A DNA stretch of 64,000 nucleotides, taken from NCBI GenBank assembly GCA_963750025.1, contig CAVVPF010000002.1, positions 20,081 to 84,080 on the forward strand, in the 5' to 3' direction. The position numbers and the translations under genes were made by a program. Below the pieces are notes generated by a model. That model did no database searches, had not been told where the DNA came from, and worked only from the letters and a program-made list of their open reading frames with translations. The DNA comes from an uncultured Chloroflexia bacterium. Lineage in GTDB: Bacteria > Chloroflexota > Limnocylindria > QHBO01. Position 1 is the first letter of the stretch. Every line of letters begins with the position of its first letter. This document shows positions 225 through 19,421 of this stretch, in pieces.

Positions 225-2918
225 ATGAGCACCGTCCATCTCGAGCGGATCTTCCGTCCCCGCTCCGTCGCCGTTGTCGGCGCCAACAACCGGCCGCAGC
301 GCGTCGGCAACGTCATCATGCGCAACCTCCTCGCCGGCGGCTTCGACGGGCCGATCATGCCGGTGAACCCGCGCTACGACGCGGTCGCGGGCGTGCTCAC
401 CTATCCCGACGTCGCGAGCCTCCCGCGCACGCCCGATCTCGCGATCCTCTGCACGCCCCCGGACACCGATCCCGGACCTCGTGGACGAGCTCGGGGCGGT
501 CGGCACGCGGGCCGTCATGGTGGTGGCGCGCGGGCTCGGGACGCTGCGCGGCCCGGACGGACGGACCATCGAGGAGCGCACGCTCCTCACCGCCCGCCAG
601 CACGGCATCCGGATCGTGGGCGGCGGCACGCTCGGCATCCTGTCGCCGAACATCGGGCTGAACGCGAGCTTCGCGCGGGTCCCCGCGCTCCCCGGCAACC
701 TCGGCTTCGTCTCGCAATCGGACGCCGTCGGAACGCTCCTGCTCGACTGGGCGCACCCGCGGCGCGTCGGCTTCTCCCACTTCGTCTCGCTCGGCGACGC
801 CGCGGACGTCGGGTTCGGCGAGGTCCTCGACTACCTCGGGAGCGATCCGGACACGCGCGCGATCCTGCTGTACGTCGAGTCCCTGCGCGAGCGCCGGAGC
901 TTCATGGCGGCCGCGCGCGGCGCGGCGCGCAACAAGCCGGTCCTCGCCATCAAGGCCGGCCGCGGCGCCGCGCGGATTGGCGCGCCGTCCGCGATCTCCG
1001 CGGACACGCTCTCGCTCGTGGAGCCCGACGACGTCTTCGATGCCGCCCTCCGCCGCGCCGGCATCGTGCGGGTCCGCGACATCGGCGAGCTGTTCGACGC
1101 CGTCCAGACGCTCGCGCACGCGCGGCCGCTCTCCGGGGAGCGCCTCGCGGTCGTCAGCAACGGCGGCGGCGTCGGCCTCATCGTCGCGGACGAGCTCGAC
1201 GCCGGCGGCCTCGGGGTGGCGGGGCTTTCCCCCGCGCTCGTCTCTCGGCTCAGGCCGGTCATGCCTCCCGGCTGGGACGGGCGCGACCCGCTCGACATCC
1301 TGGTCGACGCGCCGGCGGACCGCTACGCGCGCCGTCCTCGAGGTCCTCCTCGACGAGCAAGGAGTTCGACGCGGTGCTCGCGATCCACACGCCGAGCACG
1401 CTCGCCAGCAGCACCGAGATCGCCCGCGCGGTCATCCGCACGATCGCGGCCGCCCGCGGCGGCAAGCGTCCTCGCCTCGTTCGGCGGCGGCGAGAGCGTC
1501 GCGGCCGGCGCGGCAGCTGCTGGTCGAGGCGGGCGTGCCCCTCTTCGACACGCCCGCCGAGGCCGCCCGCGCCTTCCGCACCATCGTGAACCATCGGCGC
1601 AGCTCGGAGGCGCTCATCCAGATCCCGCCCTCCGATCCCGGCGGAGTTCCAGGTCGATCGCGAGGCGGCCCGGCGGATCATCCGCGCCGCGCTCGACGAG
1701 GGGCGGGACTTCCTCAGGGTGATGGAGACGGTGGGGGTCCTGCGCGCCTACGGCATCCCGGTGTGCGAGATCCAGGTGGTCGAGACGCCGGAGCAGGCCG
1801 GGCGCGTCGCACGCACGCTCGGATTCCCCGTGGACCTCGCCATCCGCTCGCCCCAGATCCGGCGCAAGCGCGAGGTCGGCGGGACCGCCCGCTCGCTCGA
1901 GAGCGCGGAGGCGGTCGAGGAGGCGCGCGCGCAGCATGGTCGCGCGGGTGACCGAGTGGAGGCCCGACGCCCACGTGACCGGGTTCGCCGTGCAGCGCGT
2001 GCAGCCGCGGCGCTATGCCCGGGAGCTCTTCGTCGGCGCCGCCGTGGACCCGCTGTTCGGTCCCGTCATGCTGTTCGGCGAGGGCCGCGACACCGAGCTC
2101 CTCCGCGACTTCGCGGTCGGGCTGCCGCCGCTCAACCTGCACCTCGCGCGCGAGCTGGTGTCGCGCACGCGGGTCGCCGCGTTGCTGGAGGCGAGCCCGA
2201 ACCGGCCGGCCGCCGACGTGGACGCGATCTGCCTCACGCTGATGAAGCTGTCTCAGCTCGTCGCCGACGTCCCCGAGATTGTGCGAGATCGACGTGAACC
2301 CGCTCCTCGCCGACGAGCGCGGCGTGCTGGCCGTGGGGGGCTACATGGCGGTCGCCCGGGCGGCCGGGCGCGGCGCCGAGCGGCTCGCGATCCAGCCCTA
2401 CCCCGAGGGCCTCGAGGAGACGGTGTCGCTCAAGGACGGCACGGCCGTGACGCTGCGCCCGGTCCGGCCCGAGGACGAGCCCGCGCACAGCGAGTTCATC
2501 ACGCGCCTGTCGCCCGAGGACAGCCGCTTCCGCTTCTTCCACTACGTCCGCTCGATGCCGCACACGCAGCTCGCCCGGCTCACGCAGATCGACTACGACC
2601 GCGAGATGGCGTTCGTCGCGACGCGGCGCGGGCCAAAGGGCGAGGAGACGATCGGCGTCGTCCGGACCGTCGCCGACCCGGAGAACGAGACCGCCGAGCT
2701 GTCGATCGTGGTCCGCTCCGACCTCAAGCGGCGCGGCCTCGGCTCGCACCTCCTGCGCAAGGCCATCGAGTACTGCCGCAGCCGCGGCACGAAGGAGCTC
2801 GCTGGGGACGTCCTCGCCGGGAACGACGCGATGCTCGAGCTGGCGCAAGCGGTTCAAGGGCTTCACCCTGTCCGACTCGGACGAGGAAGGCATCGTCCGC
2901 ATCTCGCAAAAGCTGTGA
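225..2918 (+). pseudogene. Bifunctional ADP-forming acyl-CoA synthetase-like / GNAT protein acetyltransferase (Pat-type), broken by many frameshifts
   Basis: The CoA-binding N-terminus (MSTVHLERIFRPRSVAVVGAN), the ligase-CoA and ATP-grasp segments (GFVSQSDAVG, LYVESLRERRSF, VVSNGGGVGL, VLRAYGIPV) and the C-terminal GNAT (RRGLGSHLLRKAIEYCR ... RISQKL stop at 2916-2918) are scattered over all three + frames. They fall in ORFs 36-1589, 481-1722, 977-1951, 1719-2297, 1936-3180 and 2279-4093, which implies at least 8 frame switches. Confidence 0.7.
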
Positions 2919-2929
2919 GGAGGCACGCC

Positions 2930-4035
2930 ATGGCCGAGGCCTGGATCATCGACGCGGTGCGCACGCCCATCGGGCGCGTGGGCGGGCAGCTCGCCGGGCG
3001 TGCGTCCCGACGACCTCGCGGCCGTGCCGCTGCGGGCGGTGCTCGCCCGGTCCGGCGTGCCGGCGAGCGAGGTGGAGGACGTGCTGCTCGGCTGCGCGAA
3101 CCAGGGCGGCGAGGACAGCCGGAACGTGGCGCGCATGGCGGCGCTCCTGGCCGGCTACCCGGAGTCGGTGCCTGCCGTGACGGTGAACCGGCTGTGCGCC
3201 TCGGGGCTCGAGGCGGTCGCGCAGGCGGCGCGCGCGATCGTCGCCGGAGAGGGCCACGTGTTCGTGGCGGGAGGCGTCGAGTCGATGTCCCGCGCTCCGC
3301 TGGCGATGGCGAGGCCCGAGCGGGCCTACCCCCGCGGCAACGTCACGCTGTACGACACCGCCCTCGGCTGGCGCTGGACGAACCCTCGCCTCGAGGAGCT
3401 CGGGCACACCGACTCCCTCGGGCAGACCGCGGAGAACCTCGCGGTGGAGGGTCACATCGGCCGGGAGCAGCAGGACCGCTTCGCGCTCCAGAGCCACCGG
3501 AAGGCGATCGCGGCGCAGGACGCCGGTTCGTTCGAGGGCGAGCTCGTGCCGGTCGAGACCAAGGGCGGCAAGGTGATCGCGGACGAGTGCCCGCGGCGCG
3601 ACACCACCCTCGAGCGGCTCGGCAAGCTCGAGCCCGCCTTCGCGAAGGGCGGGACCGTCACGGCCGGCAACTCGAGCCCGCTCAACGACGGCGCGGCGGC
3701 GCTCCTCCTCACCTCCGACACCTACGCCCGCGCGCACGGGCTCGAGCCGCTCGCACGCGTCCGCGCGAGCGCCGTCGCCGGCGTCCCGCCGCGCATCATG
3801 GGCATCGGCCCGGTCCCTGCCGCCAGGAGCGCCCTCGCGCGGGCGCGGCTCGGCTTCGGCGACCTCGGGGTCATCGAGCTGAACGAGGCGTTCGCAGCGC
3901 AGTCGCTCGCGGTCCTCGCGGGGTGGGGGCTCACCTCCGACGACGCTCGGGTGAACCCGGACGGCGGCGCCATCGCGCTCGGACACCCGCTCGGTTGCTC
4001 GGGCGCACGCATCCTGACGACGCTCATCCAGCTCG
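2930..4035 (+). pseudogene. Acetyl-CoA C-acetyltransferase (thiolase), frameshift near 3000 and 3' end missing
   Basis: GAGGAGG SD then ATG at 2930 (MAEAWIIDAVRTPIGRVGG). It continues in another frame from about 3000 (RPDDLAAV..NRLCASGLEA..GNSSPLNDGAAA..NPDGGAIALGHPLGCSGARILTTLI). The usual last 25-30 residues, including the CIGGGQG-type motif, are absent. After about 4035 the frame reads antisense of the neighbouring ATPase gene. Confidence 0.8.
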
Positions 4036-4766
4036 AGGTTGCCGACCGACACATGCCGGAACATGCGCTCGGCATAGGTCCGCGCCCGCTTGAGATTGAG
4101 GCTCAGGGTGGGGAGCCCGCACAGGATGAGCCGCACGCGCTGATGCTCGCGCTGAACGGCGCCGAGCGCCGCCAGGAGCGTCGATAGCGGGAACCGCTCG
4201 CGGCCGCGGTCGTCGGCAAGCAGATGGGCCTCGTCGTACAGCAGGATGGCGCCGGGTCGCTCGGTATGGCTGAGCACCGAGTCGAGCTGACCGAAGGCGT
4301 TGCCCATGACGTCGGCCGCTGCGGGCGCGTCGTCGGTATACGACGGATCAATGCTCACTTGGCCGACGCGGATCCGCTTCGGTCGCAGCCAGCGCGCTCC
4401 GCGCTCGACCGCCTGTCCGACCGCTGCCAGCGCATCGGCACGCCCGATCAGAGCTTTGCAGTCTTCGGCGATGGCCTCGGCCAAGCGAACGTCATCACGG
4501 TGGCGGTCGCCCAGCTCACGCCGCAGGGTCAGCCAGCCGGCACGCTCCGAGCGAGTGGCGAACTCGCCGAGGAGCACCGTCTTGCCAGTGCCGCGCAGGC
4601 CGGTCAGCGCCCAGTTGGCATGCAGCGGTGGTTGCTCCAGCAGCCAGTCCTCGAAAGTGGCCAACAGCCAGTCACGGCCCGCCAGGTACGGCGGCGGAAC
4701 GCCGTTGCCGGGCCGGAACGGGTTGGGCAGCGGATTCGGTTGTCGGGCGAGCGCCGAACCGTTCAT
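4036..4766 (-). CDS. P-loop NTPase (AAA_16/Orc1-Cdc6/STAND-like ATP-binding protein), C-terminally truncated at the 4035 junction
   Basis: MNGSALARQ start at 4766. Walker A is GLRGTGKT and Walker B is ILLYDEAH, preceded by the LAGRDWLL helix typical of STAND/AAA_16 N-termini. The recognisable sequence stops at ..RMFRHVSVGNLE, where the ORF runs into antisense thiolase. Confidence 0.6.
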
Positions 4767-4857
4767 CGCATCGTCTCTCTTGTTGATTGGTTGGATCGGC
4801 CGGGGAGCGCCGCATGGCGCCTCCCCGGCCTGAGTCCTCACCTCATCGGTAACCGCC

Positions 4858-5552
4858 CTACGCCGCGGGCTGCCTCTGGCGGAACCACGAGCGCGATCTC
4901 ATCGCGTTCGCGATCACGTCGAGGTACACCTCGGAGTAGGCCACGCTGCCGCGCTCGAGCACCGCCCACAGGCAGTTGAGCATCGCGCTGGCGACCATCA
5001 GGTTGGTGACCACCAGCTGGGGTCGTTCCTCGGCCTGCCGCTCGCAGCCGTTGCGGGCCGCGAACTCGGCTTCGGTGGCCCGGCCGATCTCCACGTGGAT
5101 CTCGGCCAGGGACCGTCGACGAACTGACCACCCCGGCGGCGGACGAGTTGGACGTTGCCGTCGGTCTCGTCGTTGCCGCCGCTGATGAGGGTCACTTCCT
5201 GCAGACCGGCGAGATGCCGGTCGACCAGGAAGCGGCTCCAGTGGTTGTCGACCGCCAGCAGGACCAGGTCGCCGTCACGAATGATCTCCGCGACGTTCTC
5301 GTCCGTCAGGTAGTCGGCCACCGCCTGCACCGTCAGCCCCCGATACACCTCGGCCAAGGCCTCGGCCTTGTTCACACCGATGGCGCTCTCGGGGAAGACC
5401 TGCCGCGTCCGATTGCCGGGCTCGTAGGCGTCGCCGTCGACGAGCACCAGCAGCGGGCGCGGCTCTGGCCGAATGGCCAGGTAGCGGACCAGGCTCGGCA
5501 GCAGCTGAGAGCCGATGCCGCCCAGTCCTACCAGGACGATGCGCTCAGGCAT
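4858..5552 (-). CDS. ThiF/MoeB-family E1-like (ubiquitin-activating-like) protein, about 231 aa, one frameshift as sequenced near 5110
   Basis: AAAGGAGG SD then ATG at 5552. Rossmann motif is MPERIVLVGLGGIGSQ, followed by VDGDAYEPGNRTRQ. The C-terminal half (LAEIHVEIGRATEAEFAARNGCERQ...) is in ORF 4858-5094. One extra C in the CCC run (complement of GGG 5109-5111) would restore a single frame. Confidence 0.75.
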
Positions 5553-6396
5553 CGTGGGTTCCTCCTTTGGCAGCCGGCGTCGCGATCGGCGTCAGCTGGT
5601 ACATCAGGGACAGGCCCAGCTCGCTGGCGAGCTCGGTGGCGTCGCTCAGCAGGCCGTCCAGGAAGCCCTGGTCGGACCACCTCCACACCGGACGTGTCTT
5701 CGAGGACAACGCCCGGCCATCGGTTGGTCCGTGGCCGTTCGGCTTGGCCTTCGCCTGCTTCGGCTCGGCCACGATCGGCTTCACCCGCTCCAGCCAGTTG
5801 GCCGGAGGTGAGGTGAAGCGTCGTGGCCGCTGCAGCACCAGCGCGGTGCGGCAACCGAAGCGCCGGCTGTCGACGACGATCGCGGCCGAGTAGCTCGGCC
5901 GCCGCTGGTCGATGTCGCCGACCACGACGTGGATGCCGTCGAAGTCGGCCTCGTCGGCCTCGTCGGTCGCGCTCGCGAAGGCGCTCAGCGCGCCGTGGCT
6001 GTGGATCGAGCCGATGAGACGCACCCCGGCGGGCACGTCCTCCGACTTGAGCCGGTGCTTGACGGTGGCCATCCCGGCGCTCTGCTCCGGCACCACGAGT
6101 CCGAACGACTCGCCGTCCCAGGTCAGCAGCGCCAGCGCCTCCGAGCGCTGCCGCGACCAGATGGCGCGGAAGAAGCCGACCACCTGGGCCATCAGCGCAG
6201 CGGGCACCTTGGGGAGTGCGTACTCCAGGTACTCGCGCGCCGCCGGCAGGTGGGCGACGGTGTCGACGTGCGTTTGGCTCAGCCCCAGCAGGCTGCGCTT
6301 GCGCAGGTAGATCCCGTCGCGGGCCACCAGGAAGGCGGGGAGCGCCGGCTCCTCGGCGGCCGACTCGTCGACCGCCACGATCGGGAACAGGCTCAT
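5545..6396 (-). CDS. JAB/MPN (JAMM) metallopeptidase-domain protein, 283 aa
   Basis: JAMM motif HSH-GALSAFA-S-AT-D (HxHx7SxxD) within LIGSIHSHGALSAFASATDEADE. GGAGGTG SD then ATG at 6396, overlapping the upstream stop as ATGA. An approximately 120-aa C-terminal extension has no domain I recognise. Confidence 0.8.
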   Translation of the reverse strand: MSLFPIVAVDESAAEEPALPAFLVARDGIYLRKRSLLGLSQTHVDTVAHLPAAREYLEYALPKVPAALMAQVVGFFRAIWSRQRSEALALLTWDGESFGLVVPEQSAGMATVKHRLKSEDVPAGVRLIGSIHSHGALSAFASATDEADEADFDGIHVVVGDIDQRRPSYSAAIVVDSRRFGCRTALVLQRPRRFTSPPANWLERVKPIVAEPKQAKAKPNGHGPTDGRALSSKTRPVWRWSDQGFLDGLLSDATELASELGLSLMYQLTPIATPAAKGGTHDA

Positions 6397-6656
6397 GGCT
6401 CCACCTCCCGGTCCGGCAGCCACAGGACCATCCGCTCCAGGTGAGCGAAGCGCCGGAACTCGACCAGCCGCTCGTCGCGGAGGGGAAACCCTCCGTCCCG
6501 CAGCAGCTTGGCCGCCACGGCGAAGGCCGCGGAGGCCAGCTCGCCGGGGATCGAGCCATCGGTGGCGTACACCGCCCGGCGTGCGCCGAGCAATGTCGTC
6601 ACGCGAGTGCTCTCAACCGTCCGGCAGCGGACCATCGGCTCAAGCAGCCGCTGCAT
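6393..6656 (-). CDS. Small hypothetical protein (87 aa) embedded in the Ubl/E2/JAB/E1 cassette
   Basis: AAGGAGG SD 8 nt before ATG at 6656 (MQRLLEPMVRC...). The start lies inside the E2-like gene's last codons and the stop overlaps the JAB start (ATGA at 6393-6396). I recognise no motif. Confidence 0.55.
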   Translation of the reverse strand: MQRLLEPMVRCRTVESTRVTTLLGARRAVYATDGSIPGELASAAFAVAAKLLRDGGFPLRDERLVEFRRFAHLERMVLWLPDREVEP

Positions 6657-7416
6657 GGGAGTCACCTCCTTGCGGTTGCGGCGCCTGCTCCGGCGGCGGT
6701 GTCTCCACCGTCGCCTGGCCGCTGCCGATCGGCGCTCCCGGCAGGTCCTCGACCGTCATGCCGGCCGCCGCGGCCACCACTTGGCGCAGGGTGCGCCAGT
6801 AGCGGTCGTATGGGGCCGACAGGCCGGCCAGCGGATCCCGTCGCGAGCGCGACGCCCACGACCGGAAGCCACCGCTGAACGGCAGCGGGTGACGCCGGAT
6901 GTCGGCGTTGAAACGGCTCGACCAAAACGCTCCGATGAGCGCCTCGATCCGTTCGGCGCCGCTGTCGCCGGCCACGTGCACCGACCCCAGGCAGACGATG
7001 CCGTCGTCGGAGGTGTTGGGCAGGCAGCTGTGCTCGAGCGGATCGTCGAGCGATCGCAGCGGGCTGGTGCGGAAGAAGTTCATGACGCTCTCGATGCGGT
7101 CGGCCACACTCGAGACCACGAACACCACATACGGGAAGCTGAGCCGGTACTCGACCGGCTCTGAGCCGTAGCGTCGTGAGGCGTGGTACTCGATCTGGCG
7201 CCGCATCGGGAGCTGTTCGACCACGAACACCTCCCGCCCCTCGGGCGAGCGAACCCAGAAGCGGCAGCCGGCGGGCAGCAGACCGCTGCACGCCGACCGC
7301 TGCTCGGCCAGCCGGGACAGAAGGTCGTCGAGCGCGACTTCGCGTTCGGTTACCTCGGTCACCAGCGTGGCCAGGTCGCCCTCCATGCGCAGGTACTTGC
7401 GCGAATGCATGGACAT
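6640..7416 (-). CDS. UBC/E2-like protein (prokaryotic E2 family), 258 aa
   Basis: The segment HSCLPNTSDDGIVCLGSV has the Asn-to-Cys spacing and the G-x-(I/V)-C-L context of the eukaryotic E2 active site HPN-x7-C. GAGGAGAGGAG SD precedes ATG at 7416. It sits between Ubl-like and JAB/E1 genes. Confidence 0.7.
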   Translation of the reverse strand: MSMHSRKYLRMEGDLATLVTEVTEREVALDDLLSRLAEQRSACSGLLPAGCRFWVRSPEGREVFVVEQLPMRRQIEYHASRRYGSEPVEYRLSFPYVVFVVSSVADRIESVMNFFRTSPLRSLDDPLEHSCLPNTSDDGIVCLGSVHVAGDSGAERIEALIGAFWSSRFNADIRRHPLPFSGGFRSWASRSRRDPLAGLSAPYDRYWRTLRQVVAAAAGMTVEDLPGAPIGSGQATVETPPPEQAPQPQGGDSHAAAA

Positions 7417-7506
7417 CGTTGAGCTCCTCTCCTCTTGGAGCCTCGGGCGACCCGGAGCGCACCGCGTGGTACGCCCTGGATCGCCAGCGGCCCATCGGTC
7501 GGCGTC

Positions 7507-7743
7507 TCAGGCGGCGAGGCCCTTGACTCCGGCCGGCTTGAGGAACTCGATCTCGTCGCCGGCGCGCACGAGGTGGTCATCGGCCACCTTCTGGCCGTTG
7601 ACGCTGACCGTCGTCTCGCGCGGCAGGTTGAGCACCTGCTCCAGCATCTTCCAGATGCCGCGGATGCTCTTCCCTCCCAGATCGAGGCTGAGCTCGTTGA
7701 CGCCGTACACGACCTTGCAGGTCGTGTCCTCGTAGGTCTGCAC
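7507..7743 (-). CDS. Ubiquitin-like beta-grasp (ThiS/MoaD-like) protein, 78 aa
   Basis: AAGGAG-N7-GTG start at 7743. The sequence VQTYEDTTCKVVYGVNELSLDLGG...VSVNGQKVADDHLVRAGDEIEFLKPAGVKGLAA has the VNG...GDEIE pattern of ThiS/MoaD-fold proteins. The longer ORF-track start at 7824 has no SD. Confidence 0.65.
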   Translation of the reverse strand: MQTYEDTTCKVVYGVNELSLDLGGKSIRGIWKMLEQVLNLPRETTVSVNGQKVADDHLVRAGDEIEFLKPAGVKGLAA

Positions 7744-8438
7744 GATTGATCTCCTTGGTGCTTCACGGTGTCGCGAACACGAAGCAGGACCGGGCAGTCC
7801 ACGAGGTGCGTTCGCACGTGCCACCTCGCTCGCCGATGCCGCACGCCGTGCGGCCGAGCCCGGTCCGGAGCGCGTCCTTGAGGAACGATCAGCGGCGGGC
7901 GCTCACCGCCGGTGCCGATCGAGACAGCTGAGGGCATCCCTCCTTTCCTGGCGCGGAGACTTCCGCCGCCGATGGCGGAGCGAGCCCGGCTGTGATCGAT
8001 CGCACGAGCGAGAGAACGTCCCGATGTCCGAGACGGCCCGACGCACCCGCCCTCATCGAGAGCGAGCGCAGTCGAGCCGAAGCGAGACATCGAAAGGAGC
8101 GTTCCTCGCAGACATGCCGATCAGTCGACCGAGCCCGCCCCTGTCGGGGCGGAGGCGCCGTGGTGGTGCGTGCGCATCGCGCGTTCGAGGCGAAGCGCGA
8201 ATGGCAGCGTGTATGCGGTTGTTAAGGTGAGCTATCGTCTCCCGAGCCCGTATTCAGGCCCGACGCCGACACTGGTGGGATCGCGGCGGTTAGCCGCGGG
8301 AGTCCGTGGCGGGAGGCTCCGCCATCCTCGATCTGAGGTGTGGCGGCGGCCGGTCAACCCGCTGCTTTGAGAGAGCCAGCCTTGAGACCGGCCGCCGTGA
8401 TCGAGGTTAGCCCTCGTGAGCACCAGAATCAAGACCTA

Positions 8439-8462
8439 GTGTGTGAGGAAGTGTGTGAGGAA
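8439..8462. repeat. Perfect tandem duplication GTGTGTGAGGAA x2
   Basis: Read directly at 8439-8450 and 8451-8462. Confidence 0.9.
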
Positions 8463-8583
8463 TGAGCCTTTCGACGGGGAGCTCTCGTCAAGAGGTGTGG
8501 CGATTCCCTTCCGCACCTCGCTTGGCTCAAACGGCTGACACCTCCTCCACCGGCGGCACATACTCAGTTTGAGCGTGAAACGC

Positions 8584-8624
8584 GCGCCCGTAGCTCAGCG
8601 GACAGAGCGGGTGGCTTCGGACCA
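8584..8624 (+). pseudogene. 5' half of a tRNA-Arg(TCG) gene, truncated after the anticodon loop
   Basis: GCGCCCG-TA-GCTC-AGCGGACA-GAGC-G-GGTGG-CTTCGGA-CCA gives the acceptor 5' arm, a complete D-arm, the anticodon stem 5' arm and a loop with anticodon TCG. The 3' anticodon stem pairs for only 3 bp, and no T-arm (GGTTCGAATCC-like) follows. Confidence 0.5.
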
Positions 8625-8795
8625 GATACCCCGATGCGCTGTGGCTCCAGCGTGGCTCCCCGACCAAATGTGCCCGAGGTTTCCGCTGTCGGTAAGCTCC
8701 TTCGCCTCGCCACCCATCGCAGCCCGTGGCAGGGACGGATGGCGCACCGGGCGGCAGAGGCTCCAGGTGGTTAGTGCTGGGCTGGTAGCGGCTGC

Positions 8796-9143
8796 TCAGG
8801 TCCCGCTGCCCGGGTCGTACAGCTCGGCGGAGGCCAAGAAGGTGCCGTCACCGGGCTCGCCGCCCGCCACGAGCACCTTGCCGTCGGCTAGCAGCGTGGC
8901 CGTGTGGAGGGCGCGGGGCGTGACCATGTTCCCGGAGGCGGTCCAGGACCCGCTGTCCTGGTCGTGCAGCTCGGCCGAGACCAGCTCGCTGCCGCCCGCC
9001 ACCAGCACCTCGCCATCGGGCAGCAGCGTGGCCGTGTGACCTGAACGAGCCGCGGCCATGCTCCCGGTGGCGGTCCAGGACCCGCTGCTGGGGTCGTACA
9101 GCTCGGCGGAGGGCAGTAGGCCGCTGCTGGCGGCGCCCGCCAC
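8796..9143 (-). pseudogene. Kelch-repeat protein fragment (about 2.5 repeats, no N-terminus)
   Basis: Repeated units [36 protein letters not shown]. The ORF opens just after a TAG at 9144-9146 in mid-repeat and stops at DPGSGT in the first residues of another repeat. Confidence 0.6.
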
Positions 9144-9198
9144 CAGCCCTCGTGGGGGCTACTCCCAGGCTGGTGAGTGTGAAGTCCAGAAATGGGTC

Positions 9199-9238
9199 TT
9201 GACGAGAGCCTGAAATTGGTCTAGACCTTCCCCAACCC
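9199..9238 (+). promoter_or_regulatory. Promoter of the HutC/GntR gene with overlapping HutC-type operator
   Basis: TTGACG (9199-9204), a 17-nt spacer, then TAGACC. The perfect palindrome GGTCTAGACC (9218-9227) matches the core of HutC/DasR-type operators (tGGTCTAGACCa) and overlaps the -10. ATG is at 9239. Confidence 0.55.
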
Positions 9239-10021
9239 ATGGTGACGTCCGAGGACCGCTCCCCGCAGCACTCGCCAGATGGCGGCGACCTCGTGTCGAA
9301 TGGCGCTACGCGTGGTCTTGCAGCGTACCTCCAGATCGAAGATCAGCTGGCCGGTCGCATCGAGAGCGGGACGCTGGGGGTTGGGGAGCGCATCCCGCCT
9401 GAGCGCCAGCTGGCCGGGCAGATGGGGGTGAGCCGCATGACCGTTCGGCAGGCGCTGGCTCGTCTTGAGCACCGCGGTCTCGTCGTCCGCCAGCAGGGCC
9501 GCGGCACGTTCGTGTCCCAGCCCAAGCTCCACCACCGCGCGACTGTGCTGCGCGGCTTCTTCCAGGAGTCGGTCGGCCAGGGCGTGATGCCGGTGACGCG
9601 GACCATCGAACGGGGGCGGGTCTACGCCACCCGCGGACTCGCCGAGTCGCTGGGCCTTCGCCCGGGTGAGGAGACTTACAGGGTCGTGCGCCTGCGCTTC
9701 GCGCGCGGCGTGGCCACGGTTCTCGAGACATCGTTTTTCCCCGCCGAGCGGTTCCCCGGCCTGCTGGAGATGGATCTTGACCATGGGTCCATCTATCGGC
9801 TCATGGATCGACACTTCCACGCTCGCCCGGTGCGCGGCGTGCAGGCCATGGAATCGGTTGCCGCCGAGCGCGCCGAAGCCGAGCTGTTGGGGGTCCCGCT
9901 CGGCAGCCCGCTGATGCTCCTGGAGCGGACTGCCTGGGACGCCGACGGTCGCGCCGTCGAGCACGCGCGAGACCTGTATCGCGGAGATCGGAGCCGTTTC
10001 TTGACGGAGCTGAGGCTGTGA
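9239..10021 (+). CDS. GntR-family transcriptional regulator, HutC subfamily (UTRA effector domain)
   Basis: The winged HTH (RIPPERQLAGQMGVSRMTVRQALARLEHRGLVVRQQGRGTFV) is followed by a UTRA-like C-terminal half. Confidence 0.85.
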   Translation: MVTSEDRSPQHSPDGGDLVSNGATRGLAAYLQIEDQLAGRIESGTLGVGERIPPERQLAGQMGVSRMTVRQALARLEHRGLVVRQQGRGTFVSQPKLHHRATVLRGFFQESVGQGVMPVTRTIERGRVYATRGLAESLGLRPGEETYRVVRLRFARGVATVLETSFFPAERFPGLLEMDLDHGSIYRLMDRHFHARPVRGVQAMESVAAERAEAELLGVPLGSPLMLLERTAWDADGRAVEHARDLYRGDRSRFLTELRL

Positions 10022-12303: not shown

Positions 12304-12779
12304 AGCGGCTGCTCGAAGAGGTGCTCGTGGTCGATGCGCCCAGTGACCGGCTATGGGCGCTGCTCCACGATGTCGACGCCCTGAAGCGGATCCTCCCGGG
12401 CTGCGAAGAGCTGGTGGAGTTCGCCCCGGATCGCTACCGAGCGGTGATGCGCACCAAGCTGCAGTTCATCACCCTGAGGGTCGAGGGAACTGCGGAGCTG
12501 GCCGACCTGCACCCGCCAGATCATGTTCGCCTCGCCATCAGCGGCCGGCCGATTGGCCTGATTGGCTCATTCGTGGTCAGTGTGCCGATCGACGTTGACG
12601 AGATCGACGGCAAGACGCGTGGCAGCTACGCGGTTGACCTCCAGCTGACGGGGCGTCTCGCGGCGTTCGGGGCGCCGCTCCTCCGTTTCACCGTCAAGAG
12701 CCAGATCCGCGAGATGATGGCGAACCTGCAGCGCGAGCTGACTGGCGAGCGAGCCGGCGCCGAGCAGGCGGTTCCATGA
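12300..12779 (+). CDS. SRPBCC-fold protein, CoxG family
   Basis: The GTG at 12300 overlaps the upstream stop (GTGA). The sequence VKRLLEEVLVVDAPSDRLWALLHDVDALKRILPGCEEL...LTGRLAAFGAPLL is typical of the CoxG/SRPBCC family. Confidence 0.6.
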   Translation: MKRLLEEVLVVDAPSDRLWALLHDVDALKRILPGCEELVEFAPDRYRAVMRTKLQFITLRVEGTAELADLHPPDHVRLAISGRPIGLIGSFVVSVPIDVDEIDGKTRGSYAVDLQLTGRLAAFGAPLLRFTVKSQIREMMANLQRELTGERAGAEQAVP

Positions 12780-14290
12780 GCGCTGACCTGTTGCTGGCAA
12801 TCGACCAGGGCACCACCAGCACGCGGGCGATCGCATTCGACCGTGAGCTGCGCGTCGTGGCGACAGCATCGCAGCCGCTGCGCGTGAGCCACCCGCGCCC
12901 CGGATGGGTGGAGCAGGACCCCGACGAGATCCTTGAGTCGGTGGTCACCTGCACCGCCGAGGCGCTGGCGGGGTGCGGCGGCGCAGCGCGGATCGCCGGC
13001 GTTGGGATCGACAACCAGGGCGAGACGGTGATCGCCTGGGACGGCGAGACCGGAGCGGCGCTGGCGCCGGCCATCGTCTGGCAATGCCGCCGCAGCGGGC
13101 CGATCGTCGAGCGCCTCCGGGCGGCTGGGCAGGAGACGCGCATCCGCGGTCTGACCGGGTTGCCGCTGGATCCGTACTTCTCCGCGGGGAAGATGGCCTG
13201 GCTGCTGGAAGAGGTCCCGGCGGTACAGACCGCCGCCGACCGCGGGACCCTGCGGATGGGAACGGTTGACGCCTGGCTGACCTGGCATCTGGCCGGCGAG
13301 GCGCTGACCGACCCGTCGACGGCGTCGCGCACCCAACTGTTCGGGCTGGGCGCGCTGGCTTGGGATGACAGCCTGCTCGACACCTTTGGGGTTCCGCGCG
13401 GGGCGCTTCCGCGCATCGTCCCCAGCGCCGGGCCCGCCGGGGAGCTTCGGCATCGCCGCTGGAAGGGGGGCGCGCTCCCGCTGGCGGCGCTGATCTGTGA
13501 CCAGCAAGCCGCCCTCCTCGGGCATGGCTGTGTCGAGGCGGGCCAGATGAAGGGCACCTACGGGACGGGGGTCTTCGTGCTGGCAGTGGCCGGCGGCGAG
13601 CCGCCGGCACCCAGCGGCGAGCTGCTAGGAACGGTGGGCTGGCAGCTGGCCGATGGCGCGACCACCTACGCCCTCGACGGTGGGGTCTTCACCGCGGGGG
13701 CGCTGCTCAACTGGCTGCGCGACGGGCTGGGCGTATTGGCCGACCCGGCCGAGAGCGACGCGCTCGCGAGCAGCGTTCGGGATTCCGCCGGGGTCCGCAT
13801 CCTGCCGGCCCTTGCCGGCCTCGGCGCTCCGTGGTGGCGTCCGCGGGCCCGCGGGGTGATCGCGGGGCTGACCGCTGCCGCCACGCGCGCCCACGTGGCA
13901 CGGGCCGCACTGGACGGGATCGCGCACCGGGTCGCCGATGTTGTCGAGGCGATGGCAGCTGCCATGGATCGCCCCCCCACGTTCATGCGAGTCGATGGCG
14001 GGCTGACCGGCAACGGTTACCTGATGCAGCGCCAGGCGGATCTGCTAGGAATGCCGCTCGTGGTGGCATCCGCGACGGAGGCGACCGCGTTGGGGGCGGC
14101 CGCCCTGGCGGGCATCGGGCTGGGATGGATGGAGCCGCCGCAGATCGCGGCTGCCAATCCTCCCCTCCGCACGGTGCAGCCGACCATGGACGGGATCAAC
14201 CGACAGAACGAGCGCGCGGCCTGGCGACGCTTCGTCGCGGCCACCGCGGATCTTGGAAAGGAGGGTGAATCACCGGTCATCCCCGGATGA
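12776..14290 (+). CDS. glpK: Glycerol kinase
   Basis: LLAIDQGTTSTRAIAFD, GWVEQDP and IVWQCRR motifs. Length (504 aa) matches the FGGY family. Confidence 0.9.
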   Translation: MSADLLLAIDQGTTSTRAIAFDRELRVVATASQPLRVSHPRPGWVEQDPDEILESVVTCTAEALAGCGGAARIAGVGIDNQGETVIAWDGETGAALAPAIVWQCRRSGPIVERLRAAGQETRIRGLTGLPLDPYFSAGKMAWLLEEVPAVQTAADRGTLRMGTVDAWLTWHLAGEALTDPSTASRTQLFGLGALAWDDSLLDTFGVPRGALPRIVPSAGPAGELRHRRWKGGALPLAALICDQQAALLGHGCVEAGQMKGTYGTGVFVLAVAGGEPPAPSGELLGTVGWQLADGATTYALDGGVFTAGALLNWLRDGLGVLADPAESDALASSVRDSAGVRILPALAGLGAPWWRPRARGVIAGLTAAATRAHVARAALDGIAHRVADVVEAMAAAMDRPPTFMRVDGGLTGNGYLMQRQADLLGMPLVVASATEATALGAAALAGIGLGWMEPPQIAAANPPLRTVQPTMDGINRQNERAAWRRFVAATADLGKEGESPVIPG

Positions 14291-14342
14291 GGGCGCTCGA
14301 AGAAGGAGGAGTCATCGGGCGCACAAGGAGGAGGAAGTCTCT

Positions 14343-15953: not shown

Positions 15954-16027
15954 GCGGTCAGACCGATGCGGCCGGGGCGAGCCCAGGGCTTGGCCCCGGC
16001 CGATTCACTCGCAGTCACGAGATTCAC

Positions 16028-17773: not shown

Positions 17774-17814
17774 CGGCGCACCACCGAGACGCGCGGTTTG
17801 CCCTCGGCCTCGGG

Positions 17815-18000: not shown

Positions 18001-18017
18001 CCCTGGCCGCATGATCG

Positions 18018-18896
18018 TCACTCGAGCGCCCCTTCCAGCTCCTCGCCACCACCGGAGGCCAGCAGTTCGAGCCACTCGGGACTGCCGACCGGTGTCCCAC
18101 ACTCCCGGCGGCGCGGATCGCTGAGGATGACCGATAGAGCGGTCGCCGGCTTGTCGCCGGCGATGGGCTGGAGCGGTGCCATCTGGCCGAGTCGGCGCAG
18201 CACCGCGAGGTCGACCAGCCACCCGGTCGTCCAGCCCCGCAGCTGCGGGATGCTGTTGGCCCGGCGCCGCAGCCAGCGGAGCCTCGCCAGCGACGGGACC
18301 ACGAAGAGCACGTGCCAGCCCGGACGCTCGGCGAGTGCTCGTCGGTAGGCGAGCAACTTCTGGCTCATGACGGGGAGATGCTGGGTGGCCTCGTCGGTCT
18401 CGATGCAGATCACGCCGGAGCCGGTCGCCAGCTGCAGGACCAGGATGCTGTCGGGCAGCGGCGCGGGTCCCAGCAGGCCGGCGGCCATCGACTCGGTCAG
18501 CCAGGCCTGCAGCGGGTAGCGGTCGGGTCCGCACGGACGCGCCAGGGCGCAGACGGCTTCGGCGGTGTCGAGCCGATGTTGCAGCTCGTTGCTACCGGCC
18601 ACGCGGCGGTCGTGGTAGCCGAGGCGACGGCGGGCGGGCGCCGAGAGTCGGTAGGCGTTCGGGCTACGGCCGCTGGAGGGCGGGGCGAGCGCCGTGCGTT
18701 CGAGGTGGCCGGCTTGCCACAGTAGGAGGGTGCGCTGCTGGATCTTGCGCAGGTGGGCGCGGGTCAGTTCGCTGAGCTGGCGGCAGGTGGCGGCCTTGCT
18801 GCGATTGAGGAGGCGCAGGATGGCCCGATCACGGGTCGTCAGGCTGCGTCGCTCCGGCCGCGACGGGCGCGGGTAGGTGTGGAAGCGGGTGCTCAT
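18018..18896 (-). CDS. Replication-relaxation family protein (plasmid/ICE-associated)
   Basis: SLTTRDRAILRLLNRSKAATCRQLSEL...LLLWQAGHLER, followed by ILVLQLATGSGVICIETDEATQ, fits the Replic_Relax family architecture as I recall it. Confidence 0.6.
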   Translation of the reverse strand: MSTRFHTYPRPSRPERRSLTTRDRAILRLLNRSKAATCRQLSELTRAHLRKIQQRTLLLWQAGHLERTALAPPSSGRSPNAYRLSAPARRRLGYHDRRVAGSNELQHRLDTAEAVCALARPCGPDRYPLQAWLTESMAAGLLGPAPLPDSILVLQLATGSGVICIETDEATQHLPVMSQKLLAYRRALAERPGWHVLFVVPSLARLRWLRRRANSIPQLRGWTTGWLVDLAVLRRLGQMAPLQPIAGDKPATALSVILSDPRRRECGTPVGSPEWLELLASGGGEELEGALE

Positions 18897-18912
18897 GGAG
18901 CACCTCCCGCCT

Positions 18913-19008
18913 GGCGAACATACGGATCACGCTCGCCGCCCGTTCGGATAGCCGTTCGCTGCGGCGAACGCCGAAACGAACACCGAAACGAACGGCTTGG
19001 CGAACGAT
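18913..19008. repeat. Iteron-like cluster of GAACG/CGTTC motifs, including the direct repeat CCGAAACGAAC x2
   Basis: Seven copies of a (C)GAAC(G)/(C)GTTC(G) core lie within about 95 bp immediately upstream of the replication-relaxation start. The direct 11-mers are at 18971-18981 and 18983-18993. Confidence 0.6.
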
Positions 19009-19421
19009 TGCGCGGCGCGCTCATTGGCCGTCCTGGCGGTCCTGCGCGCGAGCCTGCCTCGACGGCCTGGCTCGCGGCTGCTCGCCCGCCTTGGCCGGGA
19101 GTGGCGCAGTCCGGCCGGAGATCTCGGCGCGCACCTCAGCCAGTGGCCGGGCATCGCGGCGGTCGCTGTCGGCGATCAGCGCGGCGGCCTGCTGCGGGTC
19201 ACCCGCCCCTGGCAGCCAGACCCGGCCGCCGTACACGACCGATCGAGACCAGGTGCGGAGACGCCTCACCCGCCGGCTCGAAGCCCTCGGCTACACCGTC
19301 TCCTTGGGGTCGGCCGCCTGAGCTATTTACGAGGCAGGCAATCAGATTCCCGGCAGGTGGCCGAGGACCGAGCTCGACCGGGCGTCGGGAACAGCCCGTC
19401 TATCAACGCCACTGCTCGTGC

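What the first reader, a model, noticed from the sequence alone, without database searches (positions are those of the whole stretch)
4036..7743. Ubiquitin-like conjugation cassette (Ubl - E2-like - small ORF - JAB - E1-like) beside a STAND-type ATPase
Seen in sequence:
- Five co-directional minus-strand genes each have a strong Shine-Dalgarno: AAGGAG before GTG 7743, GAGGAGAGGAG before 7416, AAGGAGG before 6656, GGAGGTG before 6396 and AAAGGAGG before 5552.
- Their junctions are tightly coupled: a 17-nt overlap at 6640-6656, ATGA at 6393-6396 and an 8-nt overlap at 5545-5552.
- The products are a 78-aa beta-grasp-like protein, a 258-aa protein with a UBC-type LPN-x7-C site, an 87-aa unknown, a JAMM (HSHx7SxxD) protein and a short ThiF-type E1.
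- A P-loop ATPase follows after a 91-nt gap.

Established knowledge:
- Ubl+E2+E1+JAB operons were predicted computationally by Iyer, Burroughs and Aravind.
- One version is the TIGRFAMs PRTRC cassette of plasmids and ICEs, whose function is unknown.
- Another version is the Bil antiphage system (BilA Ubl, BilB E2, BilC JAB, BilD E1).

Inference:
- The E2 implies protein conjugation rather than sulfur transfer. The two MoaD/ThiF sulfur-carrier sets in this same window (19628-22894 and 39925-41820) have no E2.
- As far as I recall, the short E1, the large E2 and large JAB, the extra coupled small ORF and the neighbouring ATPase differ from characterised Bil operons and fit PRTRC-like proteins better. 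No ParB gene is present.
- The cassette sits in a decayed accessory patch, consistent with a defence or mobile-element function that has not been worked out experimentally.
Basis: partly seen in the sequence, partly recalled or inferred. Interest (0 to 1): 0.9.

Follow-up and report, generated by a model that had tools for sequence, protein, structure and literature searches.

The report
Decayed ICE-borne ubiquitin-like conjugation cassette
This is a broken copy of a six-gene ubiquitin-like protein-tagging module (tag, E2-like, small helical protein, JAB peptidase, E1, ATPase) that intact relatives carry on integrative and conjugative elements of Chloroflexota; it belongs to the one class of bacterial ubiquitin-like operons whose function nobody has tested.

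Summary
They are conserved in that order in about 80 metagenomic and MAG loci, all named ones being Chloroflexota.

Three corrections apply.
- The "short E1" is a frameshifted 231-aa ThiF-type E1.
- The ATPase keeps only about 265 of about 430 residues. A deletion junction at 4025-4036 also clipped a thiolase gene and removed the recombinase found in relatives.
- The cassette is a module of integrative, often conjugative, elements. T4SS, coupling-protein and Replic_Relax genes lie upstream. Tyrosine or serine recombinases and tRNA genes lie downstream.

A conserved promoter with two direct repeats and a roughly 640-nt covarying structured leader precede the Ubl gene.

By HMM, motifs and gene content the cassette is a distant, minimal relative of PRTRC, which I equate with Iyer-Burroughs-Aravind class 6d. 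It is not Bil.

The E2 assignment rests on a borderline Prok-E2_D hit and the LPNx7C motif. A structure search did not confirm a UBC fold.

The inferred mechanism is JAB-processed Ubl conjugation through E1 and E2. The biological role is untested and is probably conflict between mobile elements or element establishment.

I rate it a new variant of a known kind. The window copy is probably inactive.

The parts
8439..8460 (-). Two direct repeats CCTCACACAC (8460-8451 and 8448-8439), 12-nt period, at the upstream (window high-coordinate) edge of the conserved block. Putative operator or recombinase-binding sites.
   Evidence: Read. The position is conserved in 45 unique loci, but the repeat sequence differs by clade (CGTACACA or TTGTACA in clade B). 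Function is inferred.
8404..8432 (-). Sigma-70-like promoter: -35 TTGATT (8432-8427), 17-nt spacer, -10 TAACCT (8409-8404).
   Evidence: Read. TTGAyn and TAnnnT boxes are aligned in the 45-locus alignment A8. The consensus scanner did not call it. It is inferred from conservation.
7760..8397 (-). Conserved non-coding structured leader of about 640 nt between the promoter and the Ubl ribosome-binding site.
   Evidence: Conserved in 45 unique loci with weak 3-periodicity and non-triplet indels. MFE z-score is -9.0. RNAalifold gives 66 pairs, 28 with compensatory changes. Covariation is 0.301, against 0.195 when shuffled and 0.06-0.10 when slid. G-U pairs fit the operon-sense strand. No Rfam family matches.
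7507..7743 (-). Pro-Ubl, 78 aa, single beta-grasp. It ends ...AGVKG-LAA.
   Evidence: Pfam ThiS hit, E 2.2e-5, 25.3 bits, above the cut-off of 22.5. In 71 homologues AGVKG is invariant and is followed by 1-3 variable residues.
6640..7416 (-). E2-like protein, 258 aa, motif LPNTSDDGIVC(142)LG. His176 is invariant.
   Evidence: Prok-E2_D E 2.2e-5, 24.7 bits against a cut-off of 25; PRTRC_B 2.9e-4. Many homologues carry precomputed PF14460. hhalign places the motif on the HPN...C of canonical E2s, but with only 3.9% probability. Foldseek finds no UBC hit.
6393..6656 (-). Protein X, 87 aa, fast-diverging helical bundle, always between the E2 and JAB genes.
   Evidence: Present at this position in about 47 loci, 16-28% identical between clades. 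It has 200 homologues of 85-91 aa with no Pfam hit. The AF2 model has pLDDT 70 and 4-5 helices, with no PDB fold match.
5545..6396 (-). JAB-N + JAMM peptidase, 283 aa, with a C-terminal extension of about 100 aa.
   Evidence: PRTRC_A E 1.8e-12 over residues 3-175; Prok-JAB 2.5e-5. Glu86, His132-Ser-His134, Ser142 and Asp145 are at least 90% conserved. The best PDB sequence hits are AfJAMM 1R5X and 1OI0, aligned over the motif at E 1.4.
4858..5552 (-). ThiF-type E1, frameshifted at 5114-5106. The N-part runs 5552 to about 5112 and the C-part is in another frame, ending at the stop codon 4860-4858.
   Evidence: ThiF 7.8e-19; PRTRC_ThiF 1.4e-10. The gene is intact at 230-234 aa in 21 relatives.
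4030..4766 (-). 5' remnant of an AAA_16/ATPase_2-type P-loop NTPase gene, about 245 of 405-439 codons (ATG 4766). The wHTH C-terminus is lost.
   Evidence: AAA_16 3.5e-7. Full-length relatives carry a MarR-like wHTH. The alignment stops at window 4026.
4025..4036 (.). Deletion or recombination junction. Homology to intact elements ends here, and the plus-strand thiolase gene (3000 to about 4032) also loses its 3' end here.
   Evidence: blastn ends at 4025-4032. Thiolase_C matches profile positions 2-95 of 123 only.
8563..8689 (+). Repeat unit that starts with the 5' 41 nt of a tRNA-Arg(TCG) gene (8584-8624). It lies just outside the conserved block.
   Evidence: 96% identical to the 5' part of the L005 tRNA-Arg. 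L005 holds four further copies. ARAGORN and Rfam do not call a tRNA here.
18018..19245 (-). Replic_Relax gene (18018-18896) and a 3' remnant of a coupling-protein (T4CP) gene (19102-19245). These are remains of the conjugation module of the same element family, collinear with the cassette.
   Evidence: PF13814 E 1.1e-11. tblastn gives 59% identity to the L003 Replic_Relax and a match to T4CP residues 718-765.

Best explanation
Window 4025-8460 is a recently inactivated copy of a six-gene module carried by integrative and conjugative elements of Chloroflexota.

In intact relatives one operon runs in this order:
- a promoter with two direct repeats;
- a structured leader of about 640 nt;
- a 78-aa pro-Ubl;
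- an E2-like protein;
- an 87-aa helical protein;
- a JAB-N/JAMM peptidase;
- a 231-aa ThiF-type E1;
- an AAA_16 + wHTH NTPase.

A site-specific recombinase usually follows, often next to a tRNA gene.

Inferred mechanism:
- The JAMM peptidase trims the 1-3 residues after the invariant AGVKG to expose Gly75.
- The E1 dimer adenylates Gly75.
- The Ubl passes as a thioester, possibly via the conserved E1 Cys170, to E2 Cys142 and then onto lysines of target proteins.
- The peptidase also reverses the conjugation.
- The NTPase, which comes in two interchangeable types, probably supplies DNA binding, sensing or specificity.

The system is a minimal, divergent relative of the PRTRC / class 6d operons. 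It most likely serves the mobile element in conflict with other elements or phages, or in establishment after transfer.

In this window the E1 is frameshifted, the NTPase is truncated and the recombinase is deleted. The copy is therefore most likely non-functional.
For: Shown here:
- Gene order and coupling are as described.
- Co-occurrence where the contig covers the position is Ubl 72/72, JAB 46/49, E1 29/32 and NTPase 21/23.
- Catalytic motifs are conserved.
- The Ubl tail pattern is invariant AGVKG plus 1-3 variable residues.
- L010 is 94% identical in DNA and has an intact E1, a full NTPase and an integrase.
- Recombinases downstream are XerC-like tyrosine in L002, L006-9, L010 and L057; Xis + tyrosine integrase next to tRNA-Ala or tRNA-Asn in L024 and L046; and serine recombinase in L003 and L005.
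- VirB4, M23/SLT hydrolase, T4CP and Replic_Relax lie upstream in 9 loci, and remnants are present in the window.
- NTPase type and cassette clade are shuffled relative to each other.
- The leader is structured and shows covariation.
- A canonical PRTRC locus on a conjugative plasmid has the same E2-JAB-ThiF order.
- The class 6d description matches: Ubl, JAB with JAB-N, E1, E2 lacking the His, and a fast-diverging helical protein (PMC1779556).

Inferred, not shown: every biochemical step, the targets and the biological role.
Against: - The UBC fold of the E2-like protein was not confirmed. The AF2 model has mean pLDDT 62.7, Foldseek finds no PDB hit with E below 0.1, a profile search of PDB sequences finds nothing, and hhalign probability is 3.9%.
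- All PRTRC hits are far below NCBIfam cut-offs.
- No PADLOC defence model matches the Ubl, E2, JAB or NTPase.
- No phage or viral-contig copy was found.
- No experiment exists for any 6d/PRTRC system.
- Twelve loci with at least 6 kb of upstream sequence show no conjugation genes.
- The E1 frameshift could be an assembly error. That cannot be checked without reads.
Confidence: 0.6

Rival explanations
1. The cassette is an establishment or anti-defence module of the conjugative element. It would be expressed early after transfer to tag or neutralise recipient proteins, with the structured leader controlling or enabling that early expression.
For: - The cassette sits directly downstream of the T4CP and Replic_Relax genes on the same strand in 9 loci.
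- A long conserved structured element precedes it.
- Canonical PRTRC lies beside ParB and near an N6-methylase on a conjugative plasmid.
- Leading regions of plasmids are known to hold anti-defence genes and structured ssDNA promoters (PMC11541004).
Against: - That paper's main text does not mention ThiF, JAB, ubiquitin or PRTRC.
- oriT and the transfer direction are unknown here.
- The conserved structure starts just after an ordinary -35/-10 promoter and leaves the promoter unpaired, unlike Frpo.
- If oriT lies between Replic_Relax and the cassette, the transferred strand would be the sense strand.
Confidence: 0.2
2. The cassette is a host-protective antiphage defence system. The Ubl would be conjugated to phage proteins, as in Bil, and the system merely rides on mobile elements.
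For: - Three sister classes are defence systems or are named as such: Type II CBASS (6b), Type II Bil (6c) and 6A-MBL (6a) (PMC10557695; the NCBIfam name).
- The two NTPase types are swapped between cassettes like sensor modules.
- An AbiEi gene lies next to the cassette in L031.
Against: - There is no PADLOC hit apart from generic ThiF similarity.
- Neighbours are conjugation genes, recombinases and metal-resistance genes rather than defence islands.
- The NTPase lacks sensor repeats.
Confidence: 0.2
3. It is a sulfur-carrier or cofactor pathway of the ThiS/MoaD-ThiF kind and not a protein-conjugation system.
For: - Pfam gives a ThiS hit and a short single-domain ThiF.
- The E2 fold is unconfirmed.
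- The same window has genuine sulfur-carrier genes: rhodanese-ThiF at 20354-21475, and ThiS at 39925-40269 with PALP at 40513-41820.
Against: - The conserved cassette contains no rhodanese, desulfurase or biosynthetic enzyme.
- A JAMM peptidase and a protein with an invariant LPNx7C motif are always present.
- The Ubl carries a removable tail after a single Gly.
- The cassette lies on mobile elements.
Confidence: 0.07
4. The window copy is functional as it stands. Either the short E1 suffices or the frameshift is a sequencing error, and the truncated NTPase is dispensable.
For: - The five upstream genes and the leader are intact and 96-98% identical in protein to L010.
- The window has other split genes that could reflect assembly errors.
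Against: - The frameshift is a complex change (CAGC to TCC), not a homopolymer slip.
- The lost E1 C-part holds conserved residues, including the GC and RPQL..TN motifs.
- The NTPase truncation coincides with the end of homology and with a clipped thiolase gene, so it is structural.
- Long neighbouring ORFs (10018-17773) are intact, which argues against a generally error-ridden sequence.
Confidence: 0.1

Closest known systems
PRTRC cassette (NCBIfam TIGR03734-03742) of plasmids and ICEs. I equate it with Iyer-Burroughs-Aravind 2006 class '6d'.
   Same: - A small Ubl with a conserved C-terminal Gly.
- An E2-like protein that lacks the canonical His and has a conserved His after the Cys (His176 here).
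- A JAB with an N-terminal JAB-N domain (PRTRC_A E 1.8e-12).
- A short single-domain ThiF of about 230-250 aa.
- A fast-diverging helical protein.
- The gene order E2-JAB-ThiF with overlapping junctions.
- Residence on conjugative elements.
   Different: - All scores are far below the NCBIfam cut-offs: 47 against 102, 20 against 131 and 41 against 145 bits.
- There is no ParB, no PRTRC_E and no 315-aa protein.
- The helical protein is 87 aa and lies between E2 and JAB.
- An AAA_16 + wHTH NTPase and a recombinase are appended.
- A long structured leader precedes the operon.
- The hosts are Chloroflexota.
[quoted passage not shown]
   Same: - The gene logic Ubl - E2 - JAB - E1.
- A Ubl with a conserved Gly followed by a short non-conserved tail that must be removed (PMC10557695).
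   Different: - There is no BilA, BilB or BilC HMM hit. BilD matches only at 2.3e-4 over the shared ThiF core.
- Bil E1s have tandem inactive and active adenylation domains (PMC11601596; the PADLOC BilD model is 453 positions long). This E1 is 231 aa.
- This cassette has an extra helical protein, an NTPase and a leader.
Bub (6E/DUF6527) and Type II CBASS Cap2/Cap3 (6b)
   Same: They are bacterial E1/E2/peptidase conjugation machinery of the same superfamilies, and are sparsely distributed.
   Different: - Bub uses oxyester chemistry with Tyr and Ser and has BubE (PMC11601596).
- Cap2 is an E2-E1 fusion that conjugates a CD-NTase.
- Neither has a JAB-N domain or a Prok-E2_D-type E2.
ThiS/MoaD-ThiF/MoeB sulfur-carrier pairs
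   Same: A beta-grasp protein plus a homodimer-type adenylating enzyme, with Pfam ThiS and ThiF hits.
   Different: Sulfur-carrier pairs have no E2-like protein and no dedicated JAMM peptidase with JAB-N, they are not carried on mobile elements, and the carrier ends in GG without a tail.
T4SS-type ICEs of Gram-positive lineages (VirB4, cell-wall hydrolase, T4CP, Replic_Relax, recombinase at a tRNA)
   Same: The larger element around the cassette in relatives has exactly these parts.
   Different: I found no published description of such elements in Chloroflexota or of this cassette as their module. I did not search the literature for this specifically.

Membership tests
PRTRC system (NCBIfam) | PRTRC_A (JAB) scores above the curated cut-off of 101.8 bits | tested here: not met
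   47.2 bits, E 1.8e-12, aligned over 173 residues. This is homology without membership.
PRTRC system (NCBIfam) | PRTRC_B (E2) scores above 131.45 bits and PRTRC_ThiF above 144.75 bits | tested here: not met
   20.3 bits and 40.9 bits.
PRTRC system (NCBIfam) | A ParB-family protein and PRTRC proteins C, D, E and F in the cassette | tested here: not met
   No ParB, E or large hypothetical protein is present in the window or in about 20 long relatives. Compare the canonical locus. The D and F models gave no hit to any cassette protein.
Iyer-Burroughs-Aravind class 6d operon | Ubl + JAB + E1 + E2 + fast-diverging alpha-helical protein in one operon | tested here: met
   description in PMC1779556.
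Iyer-Burroughs-Aravind class 6d operon | The E2 lacks the canonical His before PN and has a conserved His C-terminal to the Cys | tested here: met
   The motif is LPN rather than HPN. Cys142 is at least 90% conserved and His176 is invariant in 79 sequences.
Iyer-Burroughs-Aravind class 6d operon | The JAB carries an N-terminal alpha+beta JAB-N domain with a conserved Arg and Trp | tested here: inconclusive
   An N-terminal domain of about 80 aa is present and is covered by the PRTRC_A alignment. Arg32, Arg77 and Trp93 are at least 90% conserved. I could not map them onto the published alignment.
UBC/E2 superfamily | UBC fold: an alpha/beta core with a four-strand meander and an active-site Cys loop | tested here: inconclusive
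   The AF2 model has a helix, then six strands, then the Cys loop, then helices, at pLDDT 62.7. Foldseek finds no UBC hit. Prok-E2_D scores 24.7 bits against a cut-off of 25. hhalign aligns the motif at 3.9% probability.
JAMM/JAB metallopeptidase | The E...HxHx7Sx2D metal-binding and catalytic motif | tested here: met
   Glu86 and HSHGALSAFASATD are conserved in 22 sequences. The motif aligns to AfJAMM.
Bil (Type I/II) | BilA, BilB and BilC homology, and an E1 with tandem inactive and active adenylation domains | tested here: not met
   There are no PADLOC BilA, BilB or BilC hits. BilD scores E 2.3e-4 over the ThiF core only. This E1 is 231 aa with a single domain.
STAND NTPase | A NACHT/NB-ARC-type NTPase with a helical/wH arm and C-terminal sensor repeats | tested here: not met
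   The hits are AAA_16, AAA_22, ATPase_2 and weak nSTAND1/nSTAND6, plus a MarR-like wHTH. The protein is 399-439 aa with no repeat domain. It resembles the NTPase-wH core only.
Integrative (conjugative) element | A site-specific recombinase at the element end, next to a tRNA or att site | tested here: met
   This is met in relatives: tyrosine or serine recombinases, Xis, and tRNA-Ala, tRNA-Asn or tRNA-Arg. It is not met in the window, where the recombinase is deleted and only a tRNA-Arg 5' fragment remains.
Integrative (conjugative) element | A T4SS ATPase, coupling protein and relaxase-like protein | tested here: met
   Nine relatives carry them. The window has Replic_Relax and a T4CP remnant only.
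Integrative (conjugative) element | Flanking direct repeats (attL/attR) and demonstrated excision or transfer | tested here: inconclusive
   Only an 11-bp repeat in L006 was found, and nothing consistent elsewhere. Excision and transfer cannot be tested with these tools.

The most novel reading that the evidence does not exclude
The class 6d / PRTRC-type ubiquitin-like systems are establishment or conflict modules of conjugative elements. On this reading, the Chloroflexota version is controlled by, or works with, a previously undescribed large structured RNA of about 640 nt and a swappable DNA-binding NTPase. It would tag recipient-cell or rival-element proteins with a JAB-matured Ubl soon after the element enters a cell.
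Probability: 0.2. Interest if true: 0.8.

Novelty: new variant of a known kind. Interest (0 to 1): 0.5.

Why it matters
Four of the five bacterial E1/E2/JAB operon classes predicted in 2006 now have experimental work or a defence name: CBASS, Bil, Bub and 6A-MBL. I found no functional study of class 6d / PRTRC.

This family offers a compact, self-contained six-gene version with a defined promoter, leader and partner NTPase. It has hundreds of natural variants for covariation and specificity analysis, and a clear home on ICEs. That sharpens the question to what a conjugative element gains from tagging proteins.

The structured leader is also a candidate new large RNA.

For annotating this genome, the practical message is that the locus is a dead remnant. 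The E1 and the ATPase should be marked as pseudogenes.

Tried and rejected
- **E2 fold.** Foldseek of the AF2 E2 model against PDB gave no UBC or any significant match. A profile of 79 E2 homologues against PDB sequences found nothing.
- **Protein X.** Foldseek of the model found no match.
- **Defence models.** PADLOC had no system-specific hit for any cassette protein.
- **Known RNA families.** Rfam scans of the leader in the window and in L006 returned only noise.
- **Viral links.** IMG/VR contigs and GenBank phages hold no copy.
- **att repeats.** Repeat searches around elements with an integrase found nothing consistent. There is only a tentative 11-bp repeat in L006 and a weak similarity between the L002 integrase-distal end and the tRNA-like repeat.
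- **Small ORF in the leader.** Rejected because of non-triplet indels and weak periodicity.
- **Intrinsic terminator before the Ubl.** The scanner did not call one, and the U-rich tract is not conserved in clade B.
- **Remote E2 relatives.** None meets PRTRC_B.
- **L077.** This 30%-identity hit is a scrambled contig with inverted degraded copies and was not informative.
- **One literature search** (Prok-E2 / integrase / ubiquitin-like) returned only HIV papers.

Full report
**1. Observation**

The five minus-strand genes exist as described. I read the Shine-Dalgarno sequences and start codons directly:
- AAGGAG before GTG 7743.
- GAGGAGAGGAG before ATG 7416.
- AAGGAGG before ATG 6656.
- GGAGGTG before ATG 6396.
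- AAAGGAGG before ATG 5552.

The couplings are also as stated: a 17-nt overlap at 6640-6656, ATGA at 6393-6396 and an 8-nt overlap at 5545-5552. The motifs LPNTSDDGIVC (LPN-x7-C) and HSHGALSAFASATD (HSHx7SxxD) are present. These are real genes. Substitutions among 34 relatives show strong 3-periodicity in the Ubl and E2 genes, and the gene order recurs in about 80 loci.

**2.

The E1 is frameshifted.
- The ORF from 5552 leaves the ThiF alignment near codon 148 and ends at 4998. The conserved C-terminus is in another frame (4858-5094).
- In five genome loci and many metagenome loci the E1 is one 230-234-aa frame.
- Relatives read GGCAGCCTGG where the window reads GGTCCCTGG at 5114-5106.

The ATPase is truncated.
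- It aligns to residues 5-265 of a protein of about 430 aa and stops at window 4026.
- There all homology to intact elements ends (4025-4032).
- The plus-strand thiolase gene loses its last 28 or so profile positions at the same place. So 4025-4036 is a deletion junction.

The nearest relative is L010, with 94% DNA identity and 96-98% protein identity. It has an intact E1, a 405-aa ATPase and an integrase. The decay here is therefore recent. I cannot exclude that the frameshift is an assembly error. It is not a homopolymer slip, however, and the neighbouring long ORFs are intact.

**3. Family assignments**

- **Ubl:** Pfam ThiS above threshold.
- **JAB:** PRTRC_A E 1.8e-12 over residues 3-175 and Prok-JAB 2.5e-5. 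The catalytic Glu86, His-x-His, Ser and Asp are at least 90% conserved. The best PDB sequence matches are AfJAMM, aligned over the motif.
- **E1:** ThiF 7.8e-19 and PRTRC_ThiF 1.4e-10. GxGGIGS, RQ, NKAEALA, LLAVDNH and a Gly-Cys170 are conserved.
- **E2-like:** Prok-E2_D at E 2.2e-5, 24.7 bits against a cut-off of 25. Many homologues carry PF14460. PRTRC_B scores 2.9e-4.
- **Protein X:** no family. It is an 87-aa helical bundle (pLDDT 70) with no fold match. It is always between E2 and JAB and is only 16-28% identical between clades.

The E2 fold test was not passed.
- The AF2 model from a 79-sequence alignment reached only pLDDT 62.7.
- Foldseek found no UBC structure, and a profile search of PDB sequences found nothing.
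- hhalign against four canonical E2s put LPNTSDDGIVCLG onto HPNIxxxGxICL, at 3.9% probability.

The E2 call is therefore supported at the level of the Pfam family and the motif, and is not confirmed structurally.

**4. The Ubl is a precursor**

In 71 homologues the C-terminus is an invariant AGVKG followed by 1-3 variable residues such as LAA, LGA, QAI, QSI or R. The same logic was shown for Type II Bil, where a conserved Gly is followed by a removable tail that blocks adenylation (PMC10557695). Trimming by the JAB protein is inferred.

**5. What surrounds the cassette in relatives**

- **NTPase.** It follows the E1 in 21 of 23 covered loci. It is AAA_16/AAA_22/ATPase_2-like with a C-terminal MarR-like wHTH, 399-439 aa, with no sensor repeats and no PADLOC hit. 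Two types, about 27% identical, are shuffled relative to the cassette clades.
- **Recombinase.** Directly downstream lies one of three kinds:
  - a XerC-like tyrosine integrase whose start overlaps the NTPase stop (L002, L006-9, L010, L057);
  - Xis (HTH_17) plus a 400-aa tyrosine integrase abutting tRNA-Ala or tRNA-Asn (L024, L046);
  - a large serine recombinase (L003, and L005 next to tRNA-Arg).
- **Conjugation genes.** Upstream, on the same strand, nine loci carry VirB4-like ATPase, M23/SLT hydrolase, coupling protein and Replic_Relax. Their DNA divergence between loci is about the same as that of the cassette. Twelve loci with at least 6 kb of upstream sequence lack these genes.
- **The window.** It keeps a Replic_Relax gene (18018-18896) and a coupling-protein remnant (19102-19245). 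These are collinear with the cassette but separated from it by a 9.3-kb metabolic block.
- **tRNA fragment.** A fragment holding the 5' 41 nt of tRNA-Arg(TCG) sits just outside the conserved block at 8563-8689. L005 has a real tRNA-Arg plus four more such repeats.

Window 4025-19245 therefore looks like the wreck of an ICE.

**6. A conserved promoter and structured leader**

About 720 nt upstream of the Ubl gene are conserved in 45 unique loci, yet they show weak codon periodicity and non-triplet indels.
- At the 5' end are two direct repeats (window CCTCACACAC twice with a 12-nt period; CGTACACA or TTGTACA in other clades).
- They are followed by a -35 TTGATT, a 17-nt spacer and a -10 TAACCT (8432-8404).
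- The remaining 640 nt or so fold far better than shuffles (z = -9.0).
- RNAalifold finds 66 pairs, 28 with compensatory changes.
- On my count, 95.5% of cells pair. There are 211 double-change cells against 74 ± 7 when shuffled. The covariation score is 0.301, against 0.195 shuffled and 0.06-0.10 slid.
- Frequent G-U alternations fit the operon-sense strand.
- Relatedness inflates such numbers, and only a few deep clades contribute. Several helices nevertheless show three pair types.
- No Rfam family matches.

I treat this as a candidate new cis-acting leader RNA. Its function is unknown.

**7. Comparison with known systems**

- **Class 6d.** The description of class "6d" in Iyer, Burroughs and Aravind 2006 fits point by point: a Ubl with a conserved terminal Gly, a JAB with a JAB-N domain, an E1, an E2 lacking the canonical His but with a conserved downstream His, and a rapidly diverging helical protein (PMC1779556).
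- **PRTRC.** I equate 6d with PRTRC by inference, from the NCBIfam hits and from a canonical locus on a conjugative Sphingobium plasmid. That locus runs ParB-E-C-74aa-315aa-B-A-ThiF. By NCBIfam thresholds the window proteins are not PRTRC members, and ParB and other PRTRC genes are absent.
- **Bil.** It is not Bil. There are no BilA, BilB or BilC hits, and the E1 has a single domain where Bil has tandem domains.
- **Other classes.** 6b is Type II CBASS, 6c is Type II Bil and 6E is Bub. 6A-MBL is named anti-phage by NCBIfam.
- **Literature.** I found no functional study of PRTRC or 6d.
- **Size of the E2-like family.** It has 1683 clusters at E ≤ 1e-3, many as domains of 450-790-aa proteins.

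**8. Mechanism and role**

- Shown: gene content, motifs, linkage and mobility context.
- Inferred: JAB maturation of the Ubl, adenylation by the E1, thioester transfer to E2 Cys142, conjugation to lysines and reversal by JAB. A DNA-binding or specificity role for the NTPase is also inferred.

The role is open. I favour a function for the mobile element in conflict or establishment. Host antiphage defence and regulation of the element's own transfer remain live alternatives. A sulfur-carrier role is unlikely.

**9. Verdict**

The annotation is largely right and the classification as PRTRC-like is right. The claimed peculiarities ("short E1", ATPase neighbour) are partly artefacts of decay. I rate this a new variant of a known but uncharacterised kind. 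The copy in this window is probably dead.

Noticed in passing
window 8563-8689 (+); L005 14583-14658 and four repeats at 15924-19727: A repeat unit of about 128 nt begins with a promoter-like box and the first 41 nt of tRNA-Arg(TCG), then diverges inside the anticodon stem. There is one copy in the window and four more in L005 beside a real tRNA-Arg, spaced 0.9-1.4 kb apart. It may be scars of serial integrations or a tRNA-derived repeat. This is unresolved.
   Followed up: partly
window 225-2990 (+): A Pat-like gene for an NDP-forming acyl-CoA synthetase fused to a GNAT acetyltransferase (CoA_binding_2, Succ_CoA_lig, ATP-grasp_5, GNAT) is split over at least four reading frames. It is either a pseudogene or a locally poor assembly.
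   Followed up: partly
window 3000-4040 (+): A thiolase gene lacks its 3' end (Thiolase_C profile positions 2-95 of 123). It stops at the same junction as the truncated ATPase.
   Followed up: yes
window 21652-22718 (+), next to 20354-21475: A PALP (cysteine-synthase-like) gene is split into two ORFs (profile positions 2-59 and 72-292). It lies beside an N-terminal rhodanese + ThiF gene. This is a second apparent frameshift in the window.
   Followed up: no
window 39925-40269 (-) and 40513-41820 (-): A ThiS-family protein (E 1.7e-13) lies next to a 435-aa PALP enzyme, a CysO/CysM-like sulfur-carrier pair with no E2 or JAB.
   Followed up: partly
window 8796-9143 (-): A 115-aa Kelch-repeat fragment lies just beyond the tRNA-like repeat. 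It is probably another gene remnant.
   Followed up: no
window 9239-17773 (+): A 9.3-kb block of intact genes lies between the cassette and the Replic_Relax gene. It holds a GntR/UTRA regulator, a DAO + Pyr_redox_2 flavoprotein of 761 aa, an FGGY sugar kinase, a permease and a 581-aa unknown. It is either cargo or an insertion.
   Followed up: no
L001 12843-13139; L029 11801-12136; L031 11059-11490: In loci where no recombinase gene follows the ATPase directly, a conserved small ORF follows the ATPase gene (…RFDPR..ALRGRIGA…RRAHYARLARLSA…). It has no convincing Pfam hit.
   Followed up: no
L031 11494-12150: An AbiEi antitoxin-type regulator lies between the truncated ATPase gene and tRNA-Ala.
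   Followed up: no
leader, window ~7925-7940 (-); alignment A8 columns 826-843: A conserved GGAGGTGAT-like box (window GGAAAGGAGGGATGCC) is nearly complementary to the 16S rRNA 3' end (from my knowledge of that sequence). It sits about 190 nt upstream of the Ubl start and is predicted to be base-paired (helix 11). No conserved ORF follows it.
   Followed up: partly
L005 10001-10844; L009 2949-5120; L056 10606-11782: Other relatives also carry frame disruptions: the JAB in L005; the Ubl and JAB in L009, with the E1 ORF also interrupted (83 aa); and the ATPase in L056. Decay of this cassette is therefore recurrent, or some of these assemblies are error-prone.
   Followed up: no
L077 1-3881: This contig has two inverted, heavily degraded copies of the Ubl-E2 region. 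It is probably a chimeric or collapsed assembly.
   Followed up: no
L006 8893-8903 and 14771-14781: An 11-bp direct repeat, CGGCCGCGAAT, brackets the leader-to-integrase block of about 5.9 kb. It may be an att core, but no equivalent was found in other loci.
   Followed up: partly
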